From IMG/VR virus record IMGVR_UViG_2663762603_000001: a DNA stretch of 49,809 bases; one strand, written 5' to 3'. Shown here one piece after another: positions 4,363 to 12,300 of this stretch. Position numbers and translations under genes: made by a program. The DNA is from a virus (Duplodnaviria > Heunggongvirae > Uroviricota > Caudoviricetes). Every line of letters begins with the position of its first letter. Positions within the stretch are counted from its first letter, which is position 1. Below the pieces are notes generated by a model. That model ran no database searches. It was not told the DNA's origin and saw nothing but the letters and a program-made list of their open reading frames with translations.

Positions 4363-4923
4363 TATCGCGTCCTCAACAATGAATTTTGTGATGCAGTGCC
4401 TGGTGCCTCCAGGTGACGTTAACTAGTTAACAATTAACGCCGGATACAGAGAATCCACCCATAACACTGTTTTTGGTTTTAACTGTTCCGCGTGCGCTCA
4501 GCCGCATTCACCACATCACAAAATTCACTTTAAAAAGGGCGGCAGAGCAGTCACGGAGTAAAACTGATACCGCCAAACGTCACCAGAAAATTGATAACAG
4601 AGGGCGTTGCAGCGGGGTTGTCACTTAAGCGTATGGTCAACCTGACAACCCGGTGTCCTCAACGGGGAAGGAATAACCCCGCCATACTTACCGCCGCGCC
4701 ATTTCGCGGATTGCCACAACCGGAAACGCACGGTCGACGAAAATTTAACGACAGGCTATCTATGAACCAGCTACCTCGCCGGGCGCTTTCGCGTTATGGT
4801 CTGACTTTTCAGGGAAATATCCTTTCAGTAAACTGTCAGTGCCGGATGCTCACCCGTGTCCGGCGCACGCACTCCACCTCACCCGTGGAGAACTCCTTAA
4901 TCACCAACCCTCAGGAGGGTGAA

Positions 4924-5853: not shown

Positions 5854-6261
5854 TTATTGATGCTTGTTGCGTTTGCGAGCCTCTAATAGCTCGGTGAACA
5901 GGCGATTAAAATTCTCAACGCGGGCGCGGAGTTCGCTGAGTTGTGCTTGTTGCTCTGATTTAGGAAGTGCGCGATACAAACGCAGCATCTCTAACTCATC
6001 TTCCGATAAGTCTAGGGTACTATCGAGTGAAACAGGGGGAGCTGGTGTTTTGTCCTCGTCGCCAAACAGTATCCAGGTTGGTGAACATTGCAATACCTCG
6101 GCGAGGCGATGCAAATTTTGCCCGCGCGGGGCTGTATGGTCACTTTCCCATAATGAAATTGATGAGCCAGATACGCCAGCAGCTTTGCTTAAACCGTTTT
6201 GACTTAAGCCTACCTGCTTACGTCTTTCTCTAATGCGTTGACCTAAAGTTTTCTCGTTCAT
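5854..6261 (-). CDS. prophage immunity repressor, HTH XRE-family, RacR/DicA-like (no S24 peptidase domain)
   Basis: 135 aa from ATG at 6259-6261; helix-turn-helix segment LSQNGLSKAAGVSGSSISLWE; divergent from Cro-like gene; no Ser-Lys autocleavage module seen. Confidence 0.8.
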   Translation of the reverse strand: MNEKTLGQRIRERRKQVGLSQNGLSKAAGVSGSSISLWESDHTAPRGQNLHRLAEVLQCSPTWILFGDEDKTPAPPVSLDSTLDLSEDELEMLRLYRALPKSEQQAQLSELRARVENFNRLFTELLEARKRNKHQ

Positions 6262-8057: not shown

Positions 8058-8480
8058 GTGGCAAAAGTTTTTACACAAGAAGAGCGGGAAAAAATTAAAG
8101 GGCAGGTGGTGGAACTCGTGCGCCAGAGCGGTCGTGAGATGTTACGGCAACTGGAAGTCAAGACAGGTGCGACAAGATATCTGATGAGCGTTCTCGCAAG
8201 AGAGCTGGTTGCCAGCGGCGATGTATACAACTCTGGTTACGGGTTATTCCCGTCTGAACAGGCGCGTAAGGACTGGCAAAATGCCCGTAAAAAGCTCTCA
8301 AGGGCAAAGCTGAAGGAACCATCTGCGGTTGATCCGGACCTTATCTGGTCATTACCTGACGGAGAAATACGTCGCTACGACAGGCGTCAGAACATAATCT
8401 GTCGCGAGTGCCGGAAGAGTGAAGTTATGCAGCGCATACTAGCATTCTATCAGGGAAATGCTCGATATTTATTGAAGTGA
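8058..8480 (+). CDS. hypothetical protein downstream of replication initiator
   Basis: 140-aa ORF with GTG start after GGGGGA; no recognizable helicase-loader motifs. Confidence 0.45.
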   Translation: MAKVFTQEEREKIKGQVVELVRQSGREMLRQLEVKTGATRYLMSVLARELVASGDVYNSGYGLFPSEQARKDWQNARKKLSRAKLKEPSAVDPDLIWSLPDGEIRRYDRRQNIICRECRKSEVMQRILAFYQGNARYLLK

Positions 8481-8662
8481 TGAGATTAAAGTTTATTAGT
8501 TCAGATATTGATTGGCTCTTTTGTGGAGTAGGGTAGAGTTAGTGTGTTTGTCTGCTTGGTGCCAGCAGCGGATATGTTTAACAACAGAAAGCATTCAGCA
8601 TGGTTAGTGGATTTGCAAAGTGGATTAGGATTTGAGAAACTTTGATGAAGTTGTAAAGCTTG

Positions 8663-8696
8663 TTTCTATAAAAATAGAAATTTAACTAATAGTTAA
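8663..8696. promoter_or_regulatory. two adjacent perfect palindromes TTTCTAT-AAAA-ATAGAAA and TTAACTA-A-TAGTTAA upstream of SMEK-like gene
   Basis: inverted repeats read directly, 37-70 bp upstream of ATG 8733 in AT-rich intergenic DNA. Confidence 0.45.
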
Positions 8697-8732
8697 ACAC
8701 ACCTCCAGCTTCATTGAAAAGGATTATTAGCT

Positions 8733-9632
8733 ATGATTGATCCACTTATTAGAAACTTACAGAGTGATATTGCACTACTCCAGCTTTATATCGCGCAACG
8801 CAAACAGGCAGGCTTTCATGACATGGAAAGAATAATTGAGTCATTGACCATCTTTATGTTTCGCGCGCTGAAAATGGGTGAACTGGTAAACATGAATCAG
8901 ATTAAAGTTAATTTTCCCGCCATTGATTTAGCTGATAATAAAAACATGATAGCAGTTCAAGTTACTACGAATGCAAGTCCAGCAAAAATTAAAAAAACTA
9001 TCGAATCTTTTGAGGAAACAAATGAAATAGGAGAGAGTCTGAAAGATAAATACTCTACTTTATATATTTTTGGTTTTTGTAAAGCCTCAAGATACCTAAC
9101 TCCAAGTTATTGTAAAATAATCGACCCCAGCTATTTCGTGAATGAACTTTGCGATAAAGCAGATGAAGATATGGTCCAGGATATGATTGACGCCATTCGA
9201 CGCCATCATGATTATACATCATTACATCCATGGAGTGATAAAGATTCACTCGAAATTATACTCAATATTATTAATCGCAATGCAATAAAACATCGGATGA
9301 GTTGCGAAGGCAGTCTGTCTGATATGCTCACTGGTTTAAAAGAAATTAATGAAGTAATTACAAAAGGAACAATTCAACGTAAGCAACGTTCAAAATCGAT
9401 ATCTGACTTCAAAGATCAAAGCATGGTGAAATTTATGAGAGGTGTAATGGATGATTTGTCTGTTATTCAAGCCATAGTGAACAAATCTAAAGTTAACCAA
9501 GGTGATATGGTTTATATAAGCCATGAAGATATGATTAATATTGATAAATTAAAAGCTAAAATAGCAAGTGATTCATCAGAGATTGCAAGGCTAAATAATA
9601 TTGATATAACACTAAATGTTGTTGATTTATAA
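8733..9632 (+). CDS. SMEK-domain-like protein (candidate defence/abortive-infection protein)
   Basis: 299-aa ORF with AAGGA SD; N-terminal segment …NFPAIDLADNKNMIAVQVTT… resembles recalled SMEK-domain proteins; low-GC island. Confidence 0.6.
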   Translation: MIDPLIRNLQSDIALLQLYIAQRKQAGFHDMERIIESLTIFMFRALKMGELVNMNQIKVNFPAIDLADNKNMIAVQVTTNASPAKIKKTIESFEETNEIGESLKDKYSTLYIFGFCKASRYLTPSYCKIIDPSYFVNELCDKADEDMVQDMIDAIRRHHDYTSLHPWSDKDSLEIILNIINRNAIKHRMSCEGSLSDMLTGLKEINEVITKGTIQRKQRSKSISDFKDQSMVKFMRGVMDDLSVIQAIVNKSKVNQGDMVYISHEDMINIDKLKAKIASDSSEIARLNNIDITLNVVDL

Positions 9633-9946
9633 TTGTCGATTTAGCAAAACAGAGAATGCTTTGAAAGTTTCACCGAGAAATATTTATTGTGAACCTCCTT
9701 ATTGTTTATCGACTTTTACTCTCCGCTCATTGCAGTACTGTCGGAGAAGGCTACTATGTACAAGAAGCAGCTAACATAAGCGAGCATCACTATTGATATT
9801 AGGAAGAGTATATAAAAACTTCATGCTGAACCTTACAAAAGTAGATAAACCGGCAATGGCCTAAGTGGCAGGGTCATGTTGATCCGGCACTGCCGAGCTA
9901 ATAATTAACAAGCAAATCACTCTTTCTAATAATTTGTTGAAATAAA

Positions 9947-10606
9947 CTAAATATGTATATGTTTACCAACAACCACATATGAACTACCTGCTTTGCTCCA
10001 TGATTTTATTATTTCTAAATTATTATCTGAGCATATTTTACTTACAGTATCCACATCTAATAAACCATAGTAGAAAGCATTACGAGAGTTTTGGTATATA
10101 TACCCATGCAAATGTTTAATACCGCTCTCGTACCTCTTGAAATAAGAACTTTTGTATTGATTGACAATCAGTGCTTCACCATCACTCTTTAATAATTCTC
10201 TAATCGCACTGAGGACTTTGTGAATTGTGGATTCACATGGAATTGCGGAAAGCACGTTTGCGCAAAGTATGAAATCATAATGATTTGTTATTTTATCTAT
10301 ATTTTCATAAGAAACAATATTAGCATTCTTATAGTTATTTATCACGTAATCTGGAATCGTGGTTTGTACACCTCTGATAATTTGCACTCTTTCTAGTTGT
10401 CTTCTGGAATCTAAAAATGTCACAGTTTCAAATTTATTTACTAATTGTTCTGAATATCTAAGTTTTCCACATCCAAAATCAAGGGCATTGCCATTTTTAT
10501 TAGTGCTTTCAATCTGTTTACAGAGATAGTTAGATGGCATAGTGTGCGGTTTCGCTGCATTTTCTGAACGTATGTTTATTCCATTTATTTTGTAATTCAA
10601 AATCAA
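9947..10606 (-). CDS. class I SAM-dependent methyltransferase (not a DPPY/NPPY DNA MTase)
   Basis: 219-aa ORF; motif I LDFGCGKLRY, post-I VTFLDS, DFILCANVL; 6-bp gap from upstream membrane-protein gene. Confidence 0.7.
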   Translation of the reverse strand: MILNYKINGINIRSENAAKPHTMPSNYLCKQIESTNKNGNALDFGCGKLRYSEQLVNKFETVTFLDSRRQLERVQIIRGVQTTIPDYVINNYKNANIVSYENIDKITNHYDFILCANVLSAIPCESTIHKVLSAIRELLKSDGEALIVNQYKSSYFKRYESGIKHLHGYIYQNSRNAFYYGLLDVDTVSKICSDNNLEIIKSWSKAGSSYVVVGKHIHI

Positions 10607-10612
10607 CCTCGT

Positions 10613-11320
10613 TTAAAAAATATTGTTATTGTTAAAGAATTCTTTTATTTTGCTATCAGGTATTTGTCTTACTTGGCTTTCTGTTCTTGGTTTAACTGAT
10701 GCTATGAAAATAAGGAAGTCAAATGCGACAAGAGAAATAATCCACAACCAAAGATTAATTAAAGAGCCAGTAACAGAGAATATATTTGTTAATTTGGCGA
10801 TACTTATTATTAAAATAGTAACAAATGCGATTACTGTATGTTCAAAGAAAACCCAAAAGTAATAAACTTTGTTCCAGAAAAGTTCAACGTAATGTTTGTC
10901 TTTTAACTCTTTAACTTCTGGGTAATACAGTTTACTCATTACCTTGTGAGATTCATCAGTAGTTAATTTTCTCGTAACGCCTGCAATTTTTGCTAATGGT
11001 TTAATAATTAAATGACTATCCCACATCTTCCTTATTCCAATAATTTTTGCTACATTATTATGTAGATCTAAAGCTCCACTAATTACTGACCAAAAAACTG
11101 AAGATGCAATTGGTAATATGCCAAAGGTTAATATCCATTTAATAAATTCCTCGTAGTCTTTAACGGGGGGGATATACTTGGCATTAATGCCAACCAATGG
11201 CATGTAGCCATAAATGACTAATGATAGGTAAAATATAAATGTAGTAATAAAAGTCGCCTTATGGAGCATAGGCAACATTTCATTATAACTCTTTGGTGGT
11301 TCTAACATTTTACTCTCCAA
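10613..11320 (-). CDS. integral membrane protein (about 4 TM helices), unknown function
   Basis: 235-aa ORF with four long hydrophobic segments; first gene of two-gene operon with the methyltransferase. Confidence 0.65.
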   Translation of the reverse strand: MESKMLEPPKSYNEMLPMLHKATFITTFIFYLSLVIYGYMPLVGINAKYIPPVKDYEEFIKWILTFGILPIASSVFWSVISGALDLHNNVAKIIGIRKMWDSHLIIKPLAKIAGVTRKLTTDESHKVMSKLYYPEVKELKDKHYVELFWNKVYYFWVFFEHTVIAFVTILIISIAKLTNIFSVTGSLINLWLWIISLVAFDFLIFIASVKPRTESQVRQIPDSKIKEFFNNNNIF

Positions 11321-11598
11321 ACATTCAAAAAAAAGCTAATCTTCTATAATAACGAAATTCAGCTGGCACAATTAAAGATTAATTGCCACCAATTTCTTGA
11401 TTTTATAATTTTATCTAAATGTTTTTGATTAATCTAGTCCTAAAAGAAACCTACTGCATAAATATTTATGCTGATGACCCACTCCCTGTTCGTTAACACA
11501 TAGCAACGTTAGTAATGCATCCTAAGTGATCAATATTTTTGCTAGCTTCATCTGCTCGCTCAAAGGGAACTATAATGTTGGCTTGCGTGTGACTTGGC

Positions 11599-11835: not shown

Positions 11836-12050
11836 TTGATTTCATATTGGCGAGGTAACGGTAGTTAAGTAGAATTGCTGCGGGTGCTTGAGGCTATCTG
11901 CCTCGGGCATCAACACCAAAGGCAGATAGAGAAAAGCCCCAGTTAACATTACGCGTCCGGCAAGACGCTTAACATTAATCTGAGGCCATATCTATGCTCT
12001 ACACACGTAGGTTAGCCTCTTACGTGCCGAAAGGCAAGGAGAAGCAGGCT

Positions 12051-12206
12051 ATGAAGCAGCAAAAGGCGATGCTAATCGCCCTGATCGTCATCTGTTTAAC
12101 CGTCATAGTGACGGCACTGGTAACGAGGAAAGACCTCTGCGAGGTACGAATCCGAACCGGCCAGACGGAGGTCGCTGTCTTCACAGCTTACGAACCTGAG
12201 GAGTAA
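12051..12206 (+). CDS. hok: Hok/Gef-family membrane toxin (type I toxin)
   Basis: 51 aa MKQQKAMLIALIVICLTVIVTALVTRKDLCEVRIRTGQTEVAVFTAYEPEE, close to Hok consensus; in-frame upstream extension from 11994 resembles mok-type overlap; structured 3' region. Confidence 0.85.
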   Translation: MKQQKAMLIALIVICLTVIVTALVTRKDLCEVRIRTGQTEVAVFTAYEPEE

Positions 12207-12276
12207 GAGACCCGGCGAGGGAGAAATCCCTCGCCACCTCTGATGTGGCAGGCATCCTCAACGCACCCGCACTTAA

Positions 12277-12300
12277 CCCGCTTCGGCGGGTTTTTGTTTT
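12277..12300 (+). terminator. rho-independent terminator of hok transcript
   Basis: CCCGCTTCGGCGGG hairpin followed by TTTTTGTTTTT. Confidence 0.7.

What the first reader, a model, noticed from the sequence alone, without database searches (positions are those of the whole stretch)
8481..9660. SMEK-like protein in a low-GC island, preceded by two adjacent perfect palindromes
Between the replication module and the hok/rusA/Q region, where lambda has its nin region, GC content drops sharply. A 299-aa ORF there has an N-terminal segment (…NFPAIDLADNKNMIAVQVTT…) that I recall as characteristic of SMEK-domain proteins, which I recall as defence-island-associated (unverified). Its upstream region carries two perfect palindromes, TTTCTAT-AAAA-ATAGAAA and TTAACTA-A-TAGTTAA, suggesting dedicated repressor control. 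A related palindrome GTTAACTAGTTAAC occurs at 4427-4440 in the early-left region.
Basis: partly seen in the sequence, partly recalled or inferred. Interest (0 to 1): 0.7.

Follow-up and report, generated by a model that had tools for sequence, protein, structure and literature searches.

The report
Stand-alone SMEK nuclease in prophage
An E. coli lambdoid prophage carries, in a variable cargo slot, a self-contained gene for a stand-alone SMEK (Mrr-like nuclease) protein that is probably an untested single-gene anti-phage defence; the two upstream palindromes are private to this allele and give no evidence of a dedicated repressor.

Summary
ORF 8733-9632 (299 aa) is a bona fide SMEK_N protein (Pfam 80 bits against a cutoff of 27; NCBIfam E 5e-31). 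Its N-domain matches the solved Mrr/SMEK nuclease domain of the Kordia short-Argonaute effector (E 8e-13), with D30/E36/D65/Q76/K85 invariant. The C-terminal half is a helical domain found only in this rare ~300-aa family. The gene moves as a ~1.2-kb cassette with its own leader among prophages, conjugative elements, a plasmid and integrase islands. It has no obligate partner, often sits beside known defence genes, and is under purifying selection. Here it lies in a 2.9-kb low-GC block together with a separable 4TM + methyltransferase cassette, in a slot that holds other cargo in related prophages. Both palindromes are real and statistically unusual. They are absent from all six distinct homologous leaders, including the closest, and have no second site or cognate regulator in the window. 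The SMEK and defence-context reading is therefore supported and the repressor reading is not. PGAP already names the gene; no functional study of stand-alone SMEK proteins was found. Best guess is a single-gene defence nuclease (confidence ~0.55). Interest is moderate.

The parts
8550..11474 (.). Low-GC three-gene accessory block (SMEK cassette plus 4TM/methyltransferase cassette) in the DUF977-to-hokD slot of the prophage
   Evidence: GC 0.30-0.37. Collinear at 88% and 83% nucleotide identity with a Citrobacter IncHI2 plasmid and another E. coli element, with the same boundaries. 100% identical in 151 of 5,426 complete E. coli genomes.
8545..9735 (+). SMEK cassette: leader, ORF and conserved trailer. 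This is the unit found on its own in other contexts.
   Evidence: blastn boundaries against L002, L003, L053, L038 and L039: 5' edge at 8544-8560, with a 3' conserved block at 9683-9733. L002 homology extends to 9808.
8550..8732 (+). Leader of about 183 nt that travels with the gene. Conserved blocks include TTGATG..TTGT.AAGC and AAAAGGAT.ATT (Shine-Dalgarno) before the ATG. The promoter is not resolved.
   Evidence: Alignments A2. The consensus promoter scan found nothing in this stretch. Identity to homologues is about that of third-codon positions.
8663..8680 (.). Inverted repeat 1: TTTCTAT-AAAA-ATAGAAA
   Evidence: Absent in L069, L068, L002, L057 and L038/L039. A different AT palindrome occupies this position in L003/L053.
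8681..8697 (.). Inverted repeat 2: TTTAACTA-A-TAGTTAAA (8-nt arms)
   Evidence: Homologues read TTAAACTAACAGTCAAA, which is not palindromic. It is the only such site in the window.
8733..9632 (+). SMEK-family protein gene, 299 aa
   Evidence: dN/dS 0.11-0.29 against six homologues.
8733..9113 (+). N-terminal SMEK_N / Mrr-like PD-(D/E)xK nuclease domain (aa 1 to about 127). Invariant D30, E36, N55, D65, Q76 and K85; T78 nearly invariant.
   Evidence: Pfam PF21941 80.3 bits; NCBIfam NF033859 106 bits; PADLOC PDLC02399 E 1e-20 over profile positions 9-143 of 463; PDB 26bh_D E 8.1e-13. Invariants. The AF2 secondary structure fits an alpha-beta-beta-beta-alpha-beta core.
9114..9629 (+). C-terminal family-specific alpha-helical domain (aa 128-299). 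Conserved D169, R182-x-A184, E192-G193, G212, K221 and K274.
9683..9733 (+). Conserved trailer block downstream of the stop codon (TTATTGTTTATCGACTTTTACTCTCCGCTCA...)
   Evidence: Shared with L038, L039 and L057 although their downstream contexts differ.
9947..10606 (-). Class I SAM-dependent methyltransferase (219-aa ORF; PGAP aa). No (D/N/S)PP(Y/F/W) motif by inspection of the translation.
   Evidence: Pfam Methyltransf_12/23 and TehB; PGAP name; dN/dS 0.13-0.35.
10613..11320 (-). 231-235-aa protein with four hydrophobic segments and no known domain, in an operon with the methyltransferase
   Evidence: The pair occurs alone in a lambdoid prophage and in P2-like prophages. Pair-only homology covers window 9864-11472.
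8550..8573 (.). 7-bp hairpin / inverted repeat (GTCTGCT..N10..AGCGGAT) at the 5' edge of the cassette
   Evidence: 82.5% of cells paired, against 35-59% in slid registers, with 2 compensatory pairs, but not above shuffles.

Best explanation
The ORF encodes a stand-alone SMEK-family protein. It has an N-terminal Mrr-like PD-(D/E)xK nuclease domain, the same domain that serves as the DNase effector fused to APAZ in some short-Argonaute systems. This is joined to a helical C-terminal domain unique to the family. The gene is a self-contained mobile cargo cassette with its own leader and no obligate partner, parked in the variable 'nin-like' slot of a lambdoid prophage. It sits next to a second, separable cassette (a 4TM protein plus a SAM methyltransferase). 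Most likely it is a single-gene, prophage-borne defence against other phages or mobile DNA. In that model the C-terminal domain keeps the nuclease inactive, or senses an infection cue, possibly through oligomerisation, and the nuclease then cuts DNA. Shown here: domain identity, active-site conservation, fixed two-domain architecture, mobility, defence-rich neighbourhoods and purifying selection. Inferred: nuclease activity, the defence phenotype, the trigger and the role of the C-domain. The upstream palindromes are not part of the conserved design.
For: The SMEK_N assignment is well above curated cutoffs. There is sequence homology to the solved Kordia Mrr/SMEK domain. SMEK-APAZ/KjAgo is reported to have collateral DNase activity (PMC12205087, PMC10810196; bioRxiv 10.1101/2023.06.08.544223 calls it Mrr-like, with AspBHI as nearest nuclease). 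D30/E36/N55/D65/Q76/K85 are invariant down to about 17-24% identity and in the Kordia domain. The C-domain is found only behind SMEK_N. No neighbour is conserved in 27 loci. The cassette plus leader recurs in a prophage, a conjugative element, an IncHI2 plasmid, integrase islands and a plain chromosomal site. Neighbours include SMODS+S_4TM, AbiGi, SLATT_5, AAA_13/21, Mrr_cat x3, DpdF, AriA, a defence RT, PDC-S05/S19 and ArdC. The slot holds alternative cargo in related prophages: DUF5677, sce7726+beta, Dcm+ATPase and single hypotheticals. dN/dS is 0.11-0.29. GC is low.
Against: There is no experimental evidence for stand-alone SMEK proteins in the searchable literature. PADLOC 2023 contains no such system; the only hit is the N-domain of an Argonaute-associated model. 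The motif is D...Q-x-T with a downstream K, not a canonical (E/Q)xK, so catalytic competence is not proven. Fold searches gave no significant nuclease match. Defence enrichment among neighbours is qualitative, with no matched background. No isolated phage in INPHARED carries the gene. Expression from the prophage is untested and no promoter was resolved.
Confidence: 0.55

Rival explanations
1. It is a constitutive type IV (modification-dependent) restriction endonuclease in the manner of Mrr or AspBHI. The helical C-domain reads modified DNA and the SMEK/Mrr-like domain cuts it. There would be no abortive infection or signal sensing.
For: The literature describes SMEK as Mrr-like, with AspBHI as nearest characterised nuclease (bioRxiv 10.1101/2023.06.08.544223). 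One family member gives a marginal Mrr_cat hit (E 0.095). Mrr_cat enzymes are the most recurrent neighbours. A stand-alone gene without a cognate DNA methyltransferase fits type IV logic.
Against: Pfam Mrr_cat does not match the window protein at E <= 1. The C-domain has no resemblance to known modified-base readers (SRA, winged helix, and so on) and looks like a plain helical bundle. Domain order is reversed relative to Mrr and AspBHI (my own knowledge).
Confidence: 0.2
2. SMEK, the methyltransferase and the 4TM protein form one three-gene system. For example, the nuclease could be held in check or complemented by methylation, with a membrane effector or sensor. The conserved unit would then be the 2.9-kb block, not the single gene.
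For: The trio is collinear with identical boundaries in three unrelated contexts: this prophage, a Citrobacter IncHI2 plasmid at 88% nucleotide identity, and E. coli ECO21 at 83%. All three genes are under purifying selection. The methyltransferase gives a weak PADLOC mad2 hit (E 1e-4).
Against: SMEK homologues at or below 83% identity and all distant ones lack the pair. The pair occurs without SMEK in a lambdoid prophage and in P2-like prophages. The two units are convergently transcribed. The methyltransferase belongs to the TehB/Methyltransf_12/23 small-molecule-like class and lacks the DPPY-type motif IV by inspection.
Confidence: 0.15
3. This is the first reader's view: the two abutting palindromes are operators for a dedicated repressor that controls the SMEK gene.
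For: An abutting pair of perfect inverted repeats is rare in shuffles of this spacer (0.06%). They lie 36-70 nt upstream of the ATG, over a conserved TATAAA-like stretch. About seven substitutions relative to the consensus of relatives all increase symmetry.
Against: They are absent from six distinct homologous leaders, including the closest relatives. The leader evolves at roughly the rate of third-codon positions. The window holds no other copy of either site. They do not resemble the immunity operator ATTGAGAAAACTCAAT. No regulator gene sits in the cassette or block. The 4418-4431 palindrome has a different half-site spacing.
Confidence: 0.1
4. It is not a defence gene. It is either a phage-beneficial DNA-processing nuclease of the nin-region type (recombination or replication accessory) or a selfish addiction element.
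For: It lies among nin-like genes, with rusA and DUF968 downstream. PD-(D/E)xK nucleases also act in recombination (my own knowledge).
Against: It is found in only 151 of the many prophages that share the flanks, and is replaced by unrelated cargo elsewhere. Most homologues are outside phages, in islands, conjugative elements, a plasmid or chromosomes. It is absent from isolated phages. There is no partner gene for an addiction module.
Confidence: 0.08

Closest known systems
SMEK/Mrr-APAZ effector of short prokaryotic Argonaute systems (clade S2B, 'SPARMA'; Kordia jejudonensis KjAgo partner, PDB 26bh Mrr domain)
   Same: The N-terminal nuclease domain is homologous (E 8e-13 over residues 20-139). 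It shares the NFPAIDLAD...Q-x-T-S...K motif and invariant D30/E36/D65/Q76/K85. PADLOC's Argonaute-associated REase model matches the same region.
   Different: There is no APAZ domain: the match ends at profile position 143 of 463, and the C-terminal half is an unrelated helical domain. There is no adjacent MID-PIWI gene here or in 27 homologous loci. Any guide-dependent sensing is therefore absent and the trigger must be different.
Mrr / AspBHI-type modification-dependent (type IV/IIM) restriction endonucleases
   Same: It has a PD-(D/E)xK fold with glutamine in place of the second acidic residue (D...Q), and is described as the nearest nuclease relative of SMEK. It is a stand-alone gene without a cognate DNA methyltransferase.
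   Different: Pfam Mrr_cat does not match. The third motif residue is T with K displaced to the next helix. The nuclease is N-terminal. No recognisable DNA- or modified-base-binding domain is present.
DREN (DUF4365)-APAZ of SPARDA and other sensor-plus-nuclease abortive-infection effectors
   Same: The logic is the same: a PD-(D/E)xK nuclease kept silent until a sensor module activates it, often by oligomerisation or filamentation (bioRxiv 10.1101/2025.04.08.647717; PMC12205087).
   Different: It is a different nuclease family. Here the sensor and effector would be one 299-aa polypeptide, and activation by assembly is purely inferred.
Lambdoid nin-region morons and prophage defence hotspots
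   Same: It is a low-GC insert between conserved phage genes (DUF977 and hokD). The slot holds different cargo, partly defence-like, in related prophages, and the insert has its own leader.
   Different: Here two independent cassettes are stacked convergently and also travel en bloc onto a plasmid. The promoter and terminator typical of morons were not resolved.

Membership tests
SMEK_N domain family (Pfam PF21941 / NCBIfam NF033859) | Profile score above the curated cutoff | tested here: met
   Pfam 80.3 bits against 27; NCBIfam 106.4 bits against 30.
SMEK_N domain family (Pfam PF21941 / NCBIfam NF033859) | Conserved motif residues of the domain (helix E; ..AID..; ..Q-x-T/S..; K) | tested here: met
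   D30, E36, N55, D65, Q76 and K85 are invariant across 16 family members and the Kordia domain; T78 is nearly invariant.
Stand-alone SMEK protein architecture (~300 aa: SMEK_N plus family-specific helical C-domain) | C-domain homologous along its full length and placed directly after SMEK_N | tested here: met
   The C-domain profile finds 97 clusters. The full-length hits (about 274-356 aa) have the domain starting near residue 120-180 (219 in one 356-aa protein), and the rest are fragments plus one spurious 977-aa hit. Nine of nine distant ones have SMEK_N at 120-140 bits.
Short pAgo nuclease system (SMEK/Mrr-APAZ + short pAgo, SPARMA/SPARDA) | APAZ domain fused C-terminally to the nuclease domain | tested here: not met
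   The PADLOC Aga_REase model matches only positions 9-143 of 463. The C-half has no Pfam or PADLOC match.
Short pAgo nuclease system (SMEK/Mrr-APAZ + short pAgo, SPARMA/SPARDA) | Adjacent short Argonaute (MID-PIWI) gene | tested here: not met
   The neighbours are DUF977, a methyltransferase and a 4TM protein. No partner is conserved in 27 loci.
Mrr-type type IV restriction endonuclease (Pfam Mrr_cat PF04471) | Match to the Mrr_cat profile and a D-(E/Q)xK catalytic motif | tested here: not met
   There is no Mrr_cat hit at E <= 1 for the window protein, and only one family member hits, at E 0.095. The motif is D65...Q76-V-T78 with K85 downstream.
Mrr-type type IV restriction endonuclease (Pfam Mrr_cat PF04471) | Modification-dependent DNA cleavage | not testable with these tools
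   This needs biochemistry or phage assays with modified genomes.
PD-(D/E)xK nuclease fold | Alpha-beta-beta-beta-alpha-beta core carrying the acidic and lysine residues | tested here: inconclusive
   The AF2 secondary structure fits: H31-45, E66-68, E73-81, H83-94, E109-118. Fold searches gave only non-significant nuclease hits: EcoT38I and BglII at E > 1, viral PD-(D/E)XK at E 0.02. Homology to the solved 'Mrr domain' is by sequence.
Anti-phage defence system (catalogued) | Match to a PADLOC system model, or an experimental phenotype | tested here: not met
   The only hits are two Argonaute-associated Aga_REase models (E 1e-20 over the N-domain; a second at E 0.0016), and no system-level model matched. 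No paper was found. The phenotype is not testable here.
Prophage moron / variable cargo slot | Insert between conserved phage genes, atypical composition, alternative cargo at the same slot in relatives | tested here: met
   The DUF977 flank is in 4,064 genomes against 151 for the island.
   The palindromes are absent in six distinct homologous leaders. There is a single site in the window. No regulator was found.
HEPN domain (considered for the C-terminal half because of R182-x4-H187 in an all-alpha bundle) | HEPN profile match and conserved Rx4-6H | tested here: not met

The most novel reading that the evidence does not exclude
Stand-alone SMEK proteins are a previously uncharacterised single-gene immune system. 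Their private helical C-domain would be a new kind of infection sensor or assembly switch that unleashes an Mrr-like nuclease. They would represent the free-living form of the effector that short Argonautes recruited by fusion to APAZ. The frequently co-travelling 4TM + methyltransferase pair would be a second new two-gene system.
Probability: 0.4. Interest if true: 0.6.

Novelty: new variant of a known kind. Interest (0 to 1): 0.4.

Why it matters
If the stand-alone SMEK protein protects against phages or plasmids, it adds a compact one-gene system (299 aa, about 1.2 kb with its leader) to the catalogue. It is present in about 3% of complete E. coli genomes and scattered across Proteobacteria and Bacteroidota. 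It would also show how the nuclease module of some short-Argonaute systems works without Argonaute, which bears on how such effectors are activated. It is directly testable in E. coli. It also documents a specific lambdoid cargo slot (DUF977 to hokD) that could be mined for further candidates. If it is not a defence gene, it is an ordinary, already-annotated prophage accessory gene.

Tried and rejected
2. HEPN was considered for the C-domain because of R182-x4-H187. It was rejected: no profile hit, and the H is not conserved.
3. Conserved-partner search: all-against-all clustering of 766 neighbour ORFs found none.
4. I first concluded that the methyltransferase and 4TM protein never travel with SMEK. 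I revised this after finding the trio in a plasmid and in E. coli ECO21.
5. Operator hypothesis: I searched for half-sites, second sites and similarity to the immunity operator and found none.
6. The consensus promoter/terminator scan found no promoter-like site in the leader; its only terminator-like site upstream of the SMEK gene (8382-8370, minus strand) lies inside the DUF977 gene, and site counts did not exceed shuffles.
7. Rfam found no RNA family in the leader or island, only sok downstream.
8. There is no conserved small ORF in the leader: by inspection of the alignment, a 10-codon ATG ORF is not kept in L003.
9. Literature searches for WP_000566847, 'SMEK domain-containing' and SMEK plus anti-phage terms found no functional study. 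The 'SPARMA' word-start search returned mostly author-name noise.
10. The 5' hairpin showed no covariation above shuffles.

Full report
OBSERVATION. ORF 8733..9632 (+) encodes 299 aa that include NFPAIDLADNKNMIAVQVTT. GC drops from about 0.44-0.53 to 0.30-0.37 between roughly 8,400 and 11,600. The window is a Rac/Qin-like lambdoid prophage next to ompW. An identical copy in E. coli Ecol_AZ155 is annotated with integrase, exonuclease, dicB, a CI-like HTH protein, Cro, YdaT, a replication protein and DUF977. These are followed by 'SMEK domain-containing protein', 'class I SAM-dependent methyltransferase' and a hypothetical protein, then hokD, rem, DUF968, RusA and the antiterminator. Rfam places sok at 11882-12056.

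Both inverted repeats are real: TTTCTAT-AAAA-ATAGAAA at 8663-8680, and TTTAACTA-A-TAGTTAAA at 8681-8697, with 8-nt arms. The palindrome GTTAACTAGTTAAC lies at 4418-4431, not 4427-4440. In 5,000 dinucleotide-preserving shuffles of the 252-nt spacer, two or more such repeats occurred in 0.86% and an abutting pair in 0.06%. They are therefore unusual, though the test is post hoc.

THE PROTEIN, N-TERMINAL HALF. The recalled SMEK identity is correct. Pfam SMEK_N scores 80.3 bits against a cutoff of 27 (residues 10-120). NCBIfam NF033859 scores 106 bits against a cutoff of 30. PADLOC's Argonaute-associated 'Aga_REase-PNTD1-PNTD2' model matches at E 1e-20, but only over its first 143 of 463 positions. 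A family profile hits one solved structure, the 'Mrr domain from Kordia jejudonensis Mrr-APAZ pAgo' (26bh), at E 8e-13 over residues 20-139. The two share NFPAIDLAD...Q-x-T-S...K.

The literature describes SMEK as the Mrr-like nuclease effector fused to APAZ in clade S2B short-Argonaute systems. Its nearest nuclease relative is AspBHI, and the KjAgo/SMEK-APAZ complex has weak collateral DNase activity (10.1101/2023.06.08.544223, PMC10810196, PMC12205087). D30, E36, N55, D65, Q76 and K85 are invariant in family members down to about 17-24% identity and in the Kordia domain. The AlphaFold model (pLDDT 85, pTM 0.55) has the expected helix-strand order for a PD-(D/E)xK core. Fold searches, however, gave no significant nuclease match.

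HOW THE GENE TRAVELS. In 27 loci no neighbouring ORF is conserved. Among enterobacterial relatives (77-90% protein identity), roughly 180 nt upstream and a block about 50-100 nt downstream of the stop are homologous although the flanking contexts differ. This defines a cassette of about window 8545-9735. The contexts are:
- this prophage;
- a conjugative element with AbiGi, ArdC and an N6/N4 methyltransferase;
- an island with SMODS+S_4TM, ArdC, IS66 and an integrase;
- integrase/resolvase islands by proBA with AAA_13 and HNH_2, and a chromosomal site near SymE and TacAT;
- a Pseudomonas integrase island with SLATT_5;
- an IncHI2 plasmid.

A bulk scan of 126 ORFs within 3.3 kb in 24 species-representative loci found the following: Mrr_cat (three members), AAA_21, a pPIWI-associated nuclease, DpdF (two), AriA (two), a CBASS cyclase plus 4TM effector, a defence-type reverse transcriptase, PDC-S05, PDC-S19 and IetS. 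This is a qualitative enrichment without a matched background. dN/dS for the gene is 0.11-0.29. In E. coli the cassette is in 151 of 5,426 complete genomes, all chromosomal. No isolated phage carries it.

THE SLOT AND THE ISLAND. The flanking DUF977 gene occurs at 6,215 places in 4,064 genomes. Downstream of it, related prophages carry other cargo:
- a 444-aa hypothetical in phage Tritos;
- IS5 plus a hypothetical;
- a DUF5677 protein;
- sce7726 plus a 'beta family' protein;
- Dcm plus an O-methyltransferase plus an ATPase;
- a BCCT transporter.

The low-GC island is composite. The 231-aa protein with four hydrophobic segments and the methyltransferase form their own conserved pair. That pair is found without SMEK right after O/P in an Enterobacter lambdoid prophage and right after ogr in P2-like prophages. 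Pair-only homology spans window 9864-11472. Yet the whole trio (8550-11474) is also collinear, with the same edges, in a Citrobacter IncHI2 plasmid (88% nucleotide identity) and in a different E. coli element (83%). The two units are therefore separable but sometimes move en bloc. I rate a single three-gene system as a minority possibility.

THE PALINDROMES. Six distinct homologous leaders were aligned. The closest relatives read GTTAATATAAAAACAAGAAATTAAACTAACAGTCAAA where the window has the two palindromes. The window allele also lacks 16 nt just downstream. Only L003/L053 has a different AT palindrome at the first position. Leader identity is about equal to third-codon-position identity in four of five comparisons (0.88 vs 0.87; 0.76 vs 0.76; 0.62 vs 0.65; 0.79 vs 0.81) and somewhat lower in the fifth (0.78 vs 0.82). 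This suggests little overall constraint. The half-site hexamer is not enriched. TTAACTNNNAGTTAA with up to one mismatch is unique in the window. The immunity operator is unrelated, and no regulator gene lies in the block. The palindromes are thus private to this allele. A lineage-specific function cannot be excluded, since roughly seven substitutions all increase symmetry, but nothing supports a dedicated repressor as part of the system.

VERDICT. The most likely reading is a stand-alone Mrr-like nuclease with a private regulatory or sensor domain that acts as a single-gene defence carried by mobile elements (confidence about 0.55). The identity and cassette nature are near certain. The defence role, nuclease activity and trigger are inferred. 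The gene is already named by PGAP and belongs to a curated domain family, but I found no functional study of the stand-alone architecture. It is not a member of the short-Argonaute systems that made the domain known, because it lacks APAZ and has no pAgo neighbour. I class it as a new variant of a known kind, with moderate interest (0.4).

Noticed in passing
window 9864-11474 (minus strand: 10613-11320 and 9947-10606): A conserved two-gene cassette: a 231-aa protein with four hydrophobic segments and no known domain, followed by a class I SAM methyltransferase (TehB/Methyltransf_12/23-like). It recurs without SMEK after O/P in an Enterobacter lambdoid prophage and after ogr in P2-like prophages of Providencia and Enterobacter. 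dN/dS is 0.09-0.35. It is a candidate two-gene prophage accessory or defence system of unknown function.
   Followed up: partly
window 22653-23273 (+) and 23215-24282 (-): A pair annotated 'sce7726 family protein' plus 'beta family protein' sits after the lysis genes. The same pair occupies the DUF977-to-hok slot in an O111 prophage (L051 6784-8419). This suggests another mobile cargo module that hops between prophage slots.
   Followed up: no
window 8550-8573: A 7-bp inverted repeat with a 10-nt loop (GTCTGCT..TGCCAG..AGCGGAT) marks the 5' edge of the SMEK cassette and is kept in nine loci. It shows two compensatory pairs (GTCTGCT/AGCAGAC against GTCCGCT/AGCGGAC). Of the cells, 82.5% are paired, against 35-59% in slid registers, but this does not exceed shuffles. 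It could be a recombination boundary, a terminator remnant or an RNA hairpin.
   Followed up: partly
window 9683-9733: A conserved trailer block downstream of the SMEK stop codon is shared by homologues whose downstream contexts differ. It defines the 3' edge of the cassette; its function is unknown.
   Followed up: partly
It shares only a hexamer with IR2, at a different spacing.
   Followed up: partly
window 8058-8480 and downstream slot; L046-L052: The DUF977-to-hokD junction of Rac/Qin-like prophages is a high-turnover cargo slot. The flank occurs at 6,215 places in 4,064 E. coli genomes with many alternative inserts, several of which are unannotated single large ORFs (for example a 444-aa protein in phage Tritos and a DUF5677 protein). 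It could be mined for new systems.
   Followed up: partly
window 11882-12206: A complete hok/sok module borders the island: Rfam sok at 114 bits (11882-12056), with the hokD ORF ending at 12206. A weak isrK-like hit (25.7 bits, below the gathering score) follows at 12215-12296.
   Followed up: no
L002 (NZ_JBFBIU010000052.1, 'Streptomyces sp.') and L007 ('Candidatus Scatousia' MAG): Short contigs carry enterobacterial-type SMEK sequence, at 87% protein identity in L002 and 100% in L007, and L007 also carries the two island partners. They are filed under non-enterobacterial genomes, which most likely reflects assembly or binning contamination rather than real hosts.
   Followed up: no
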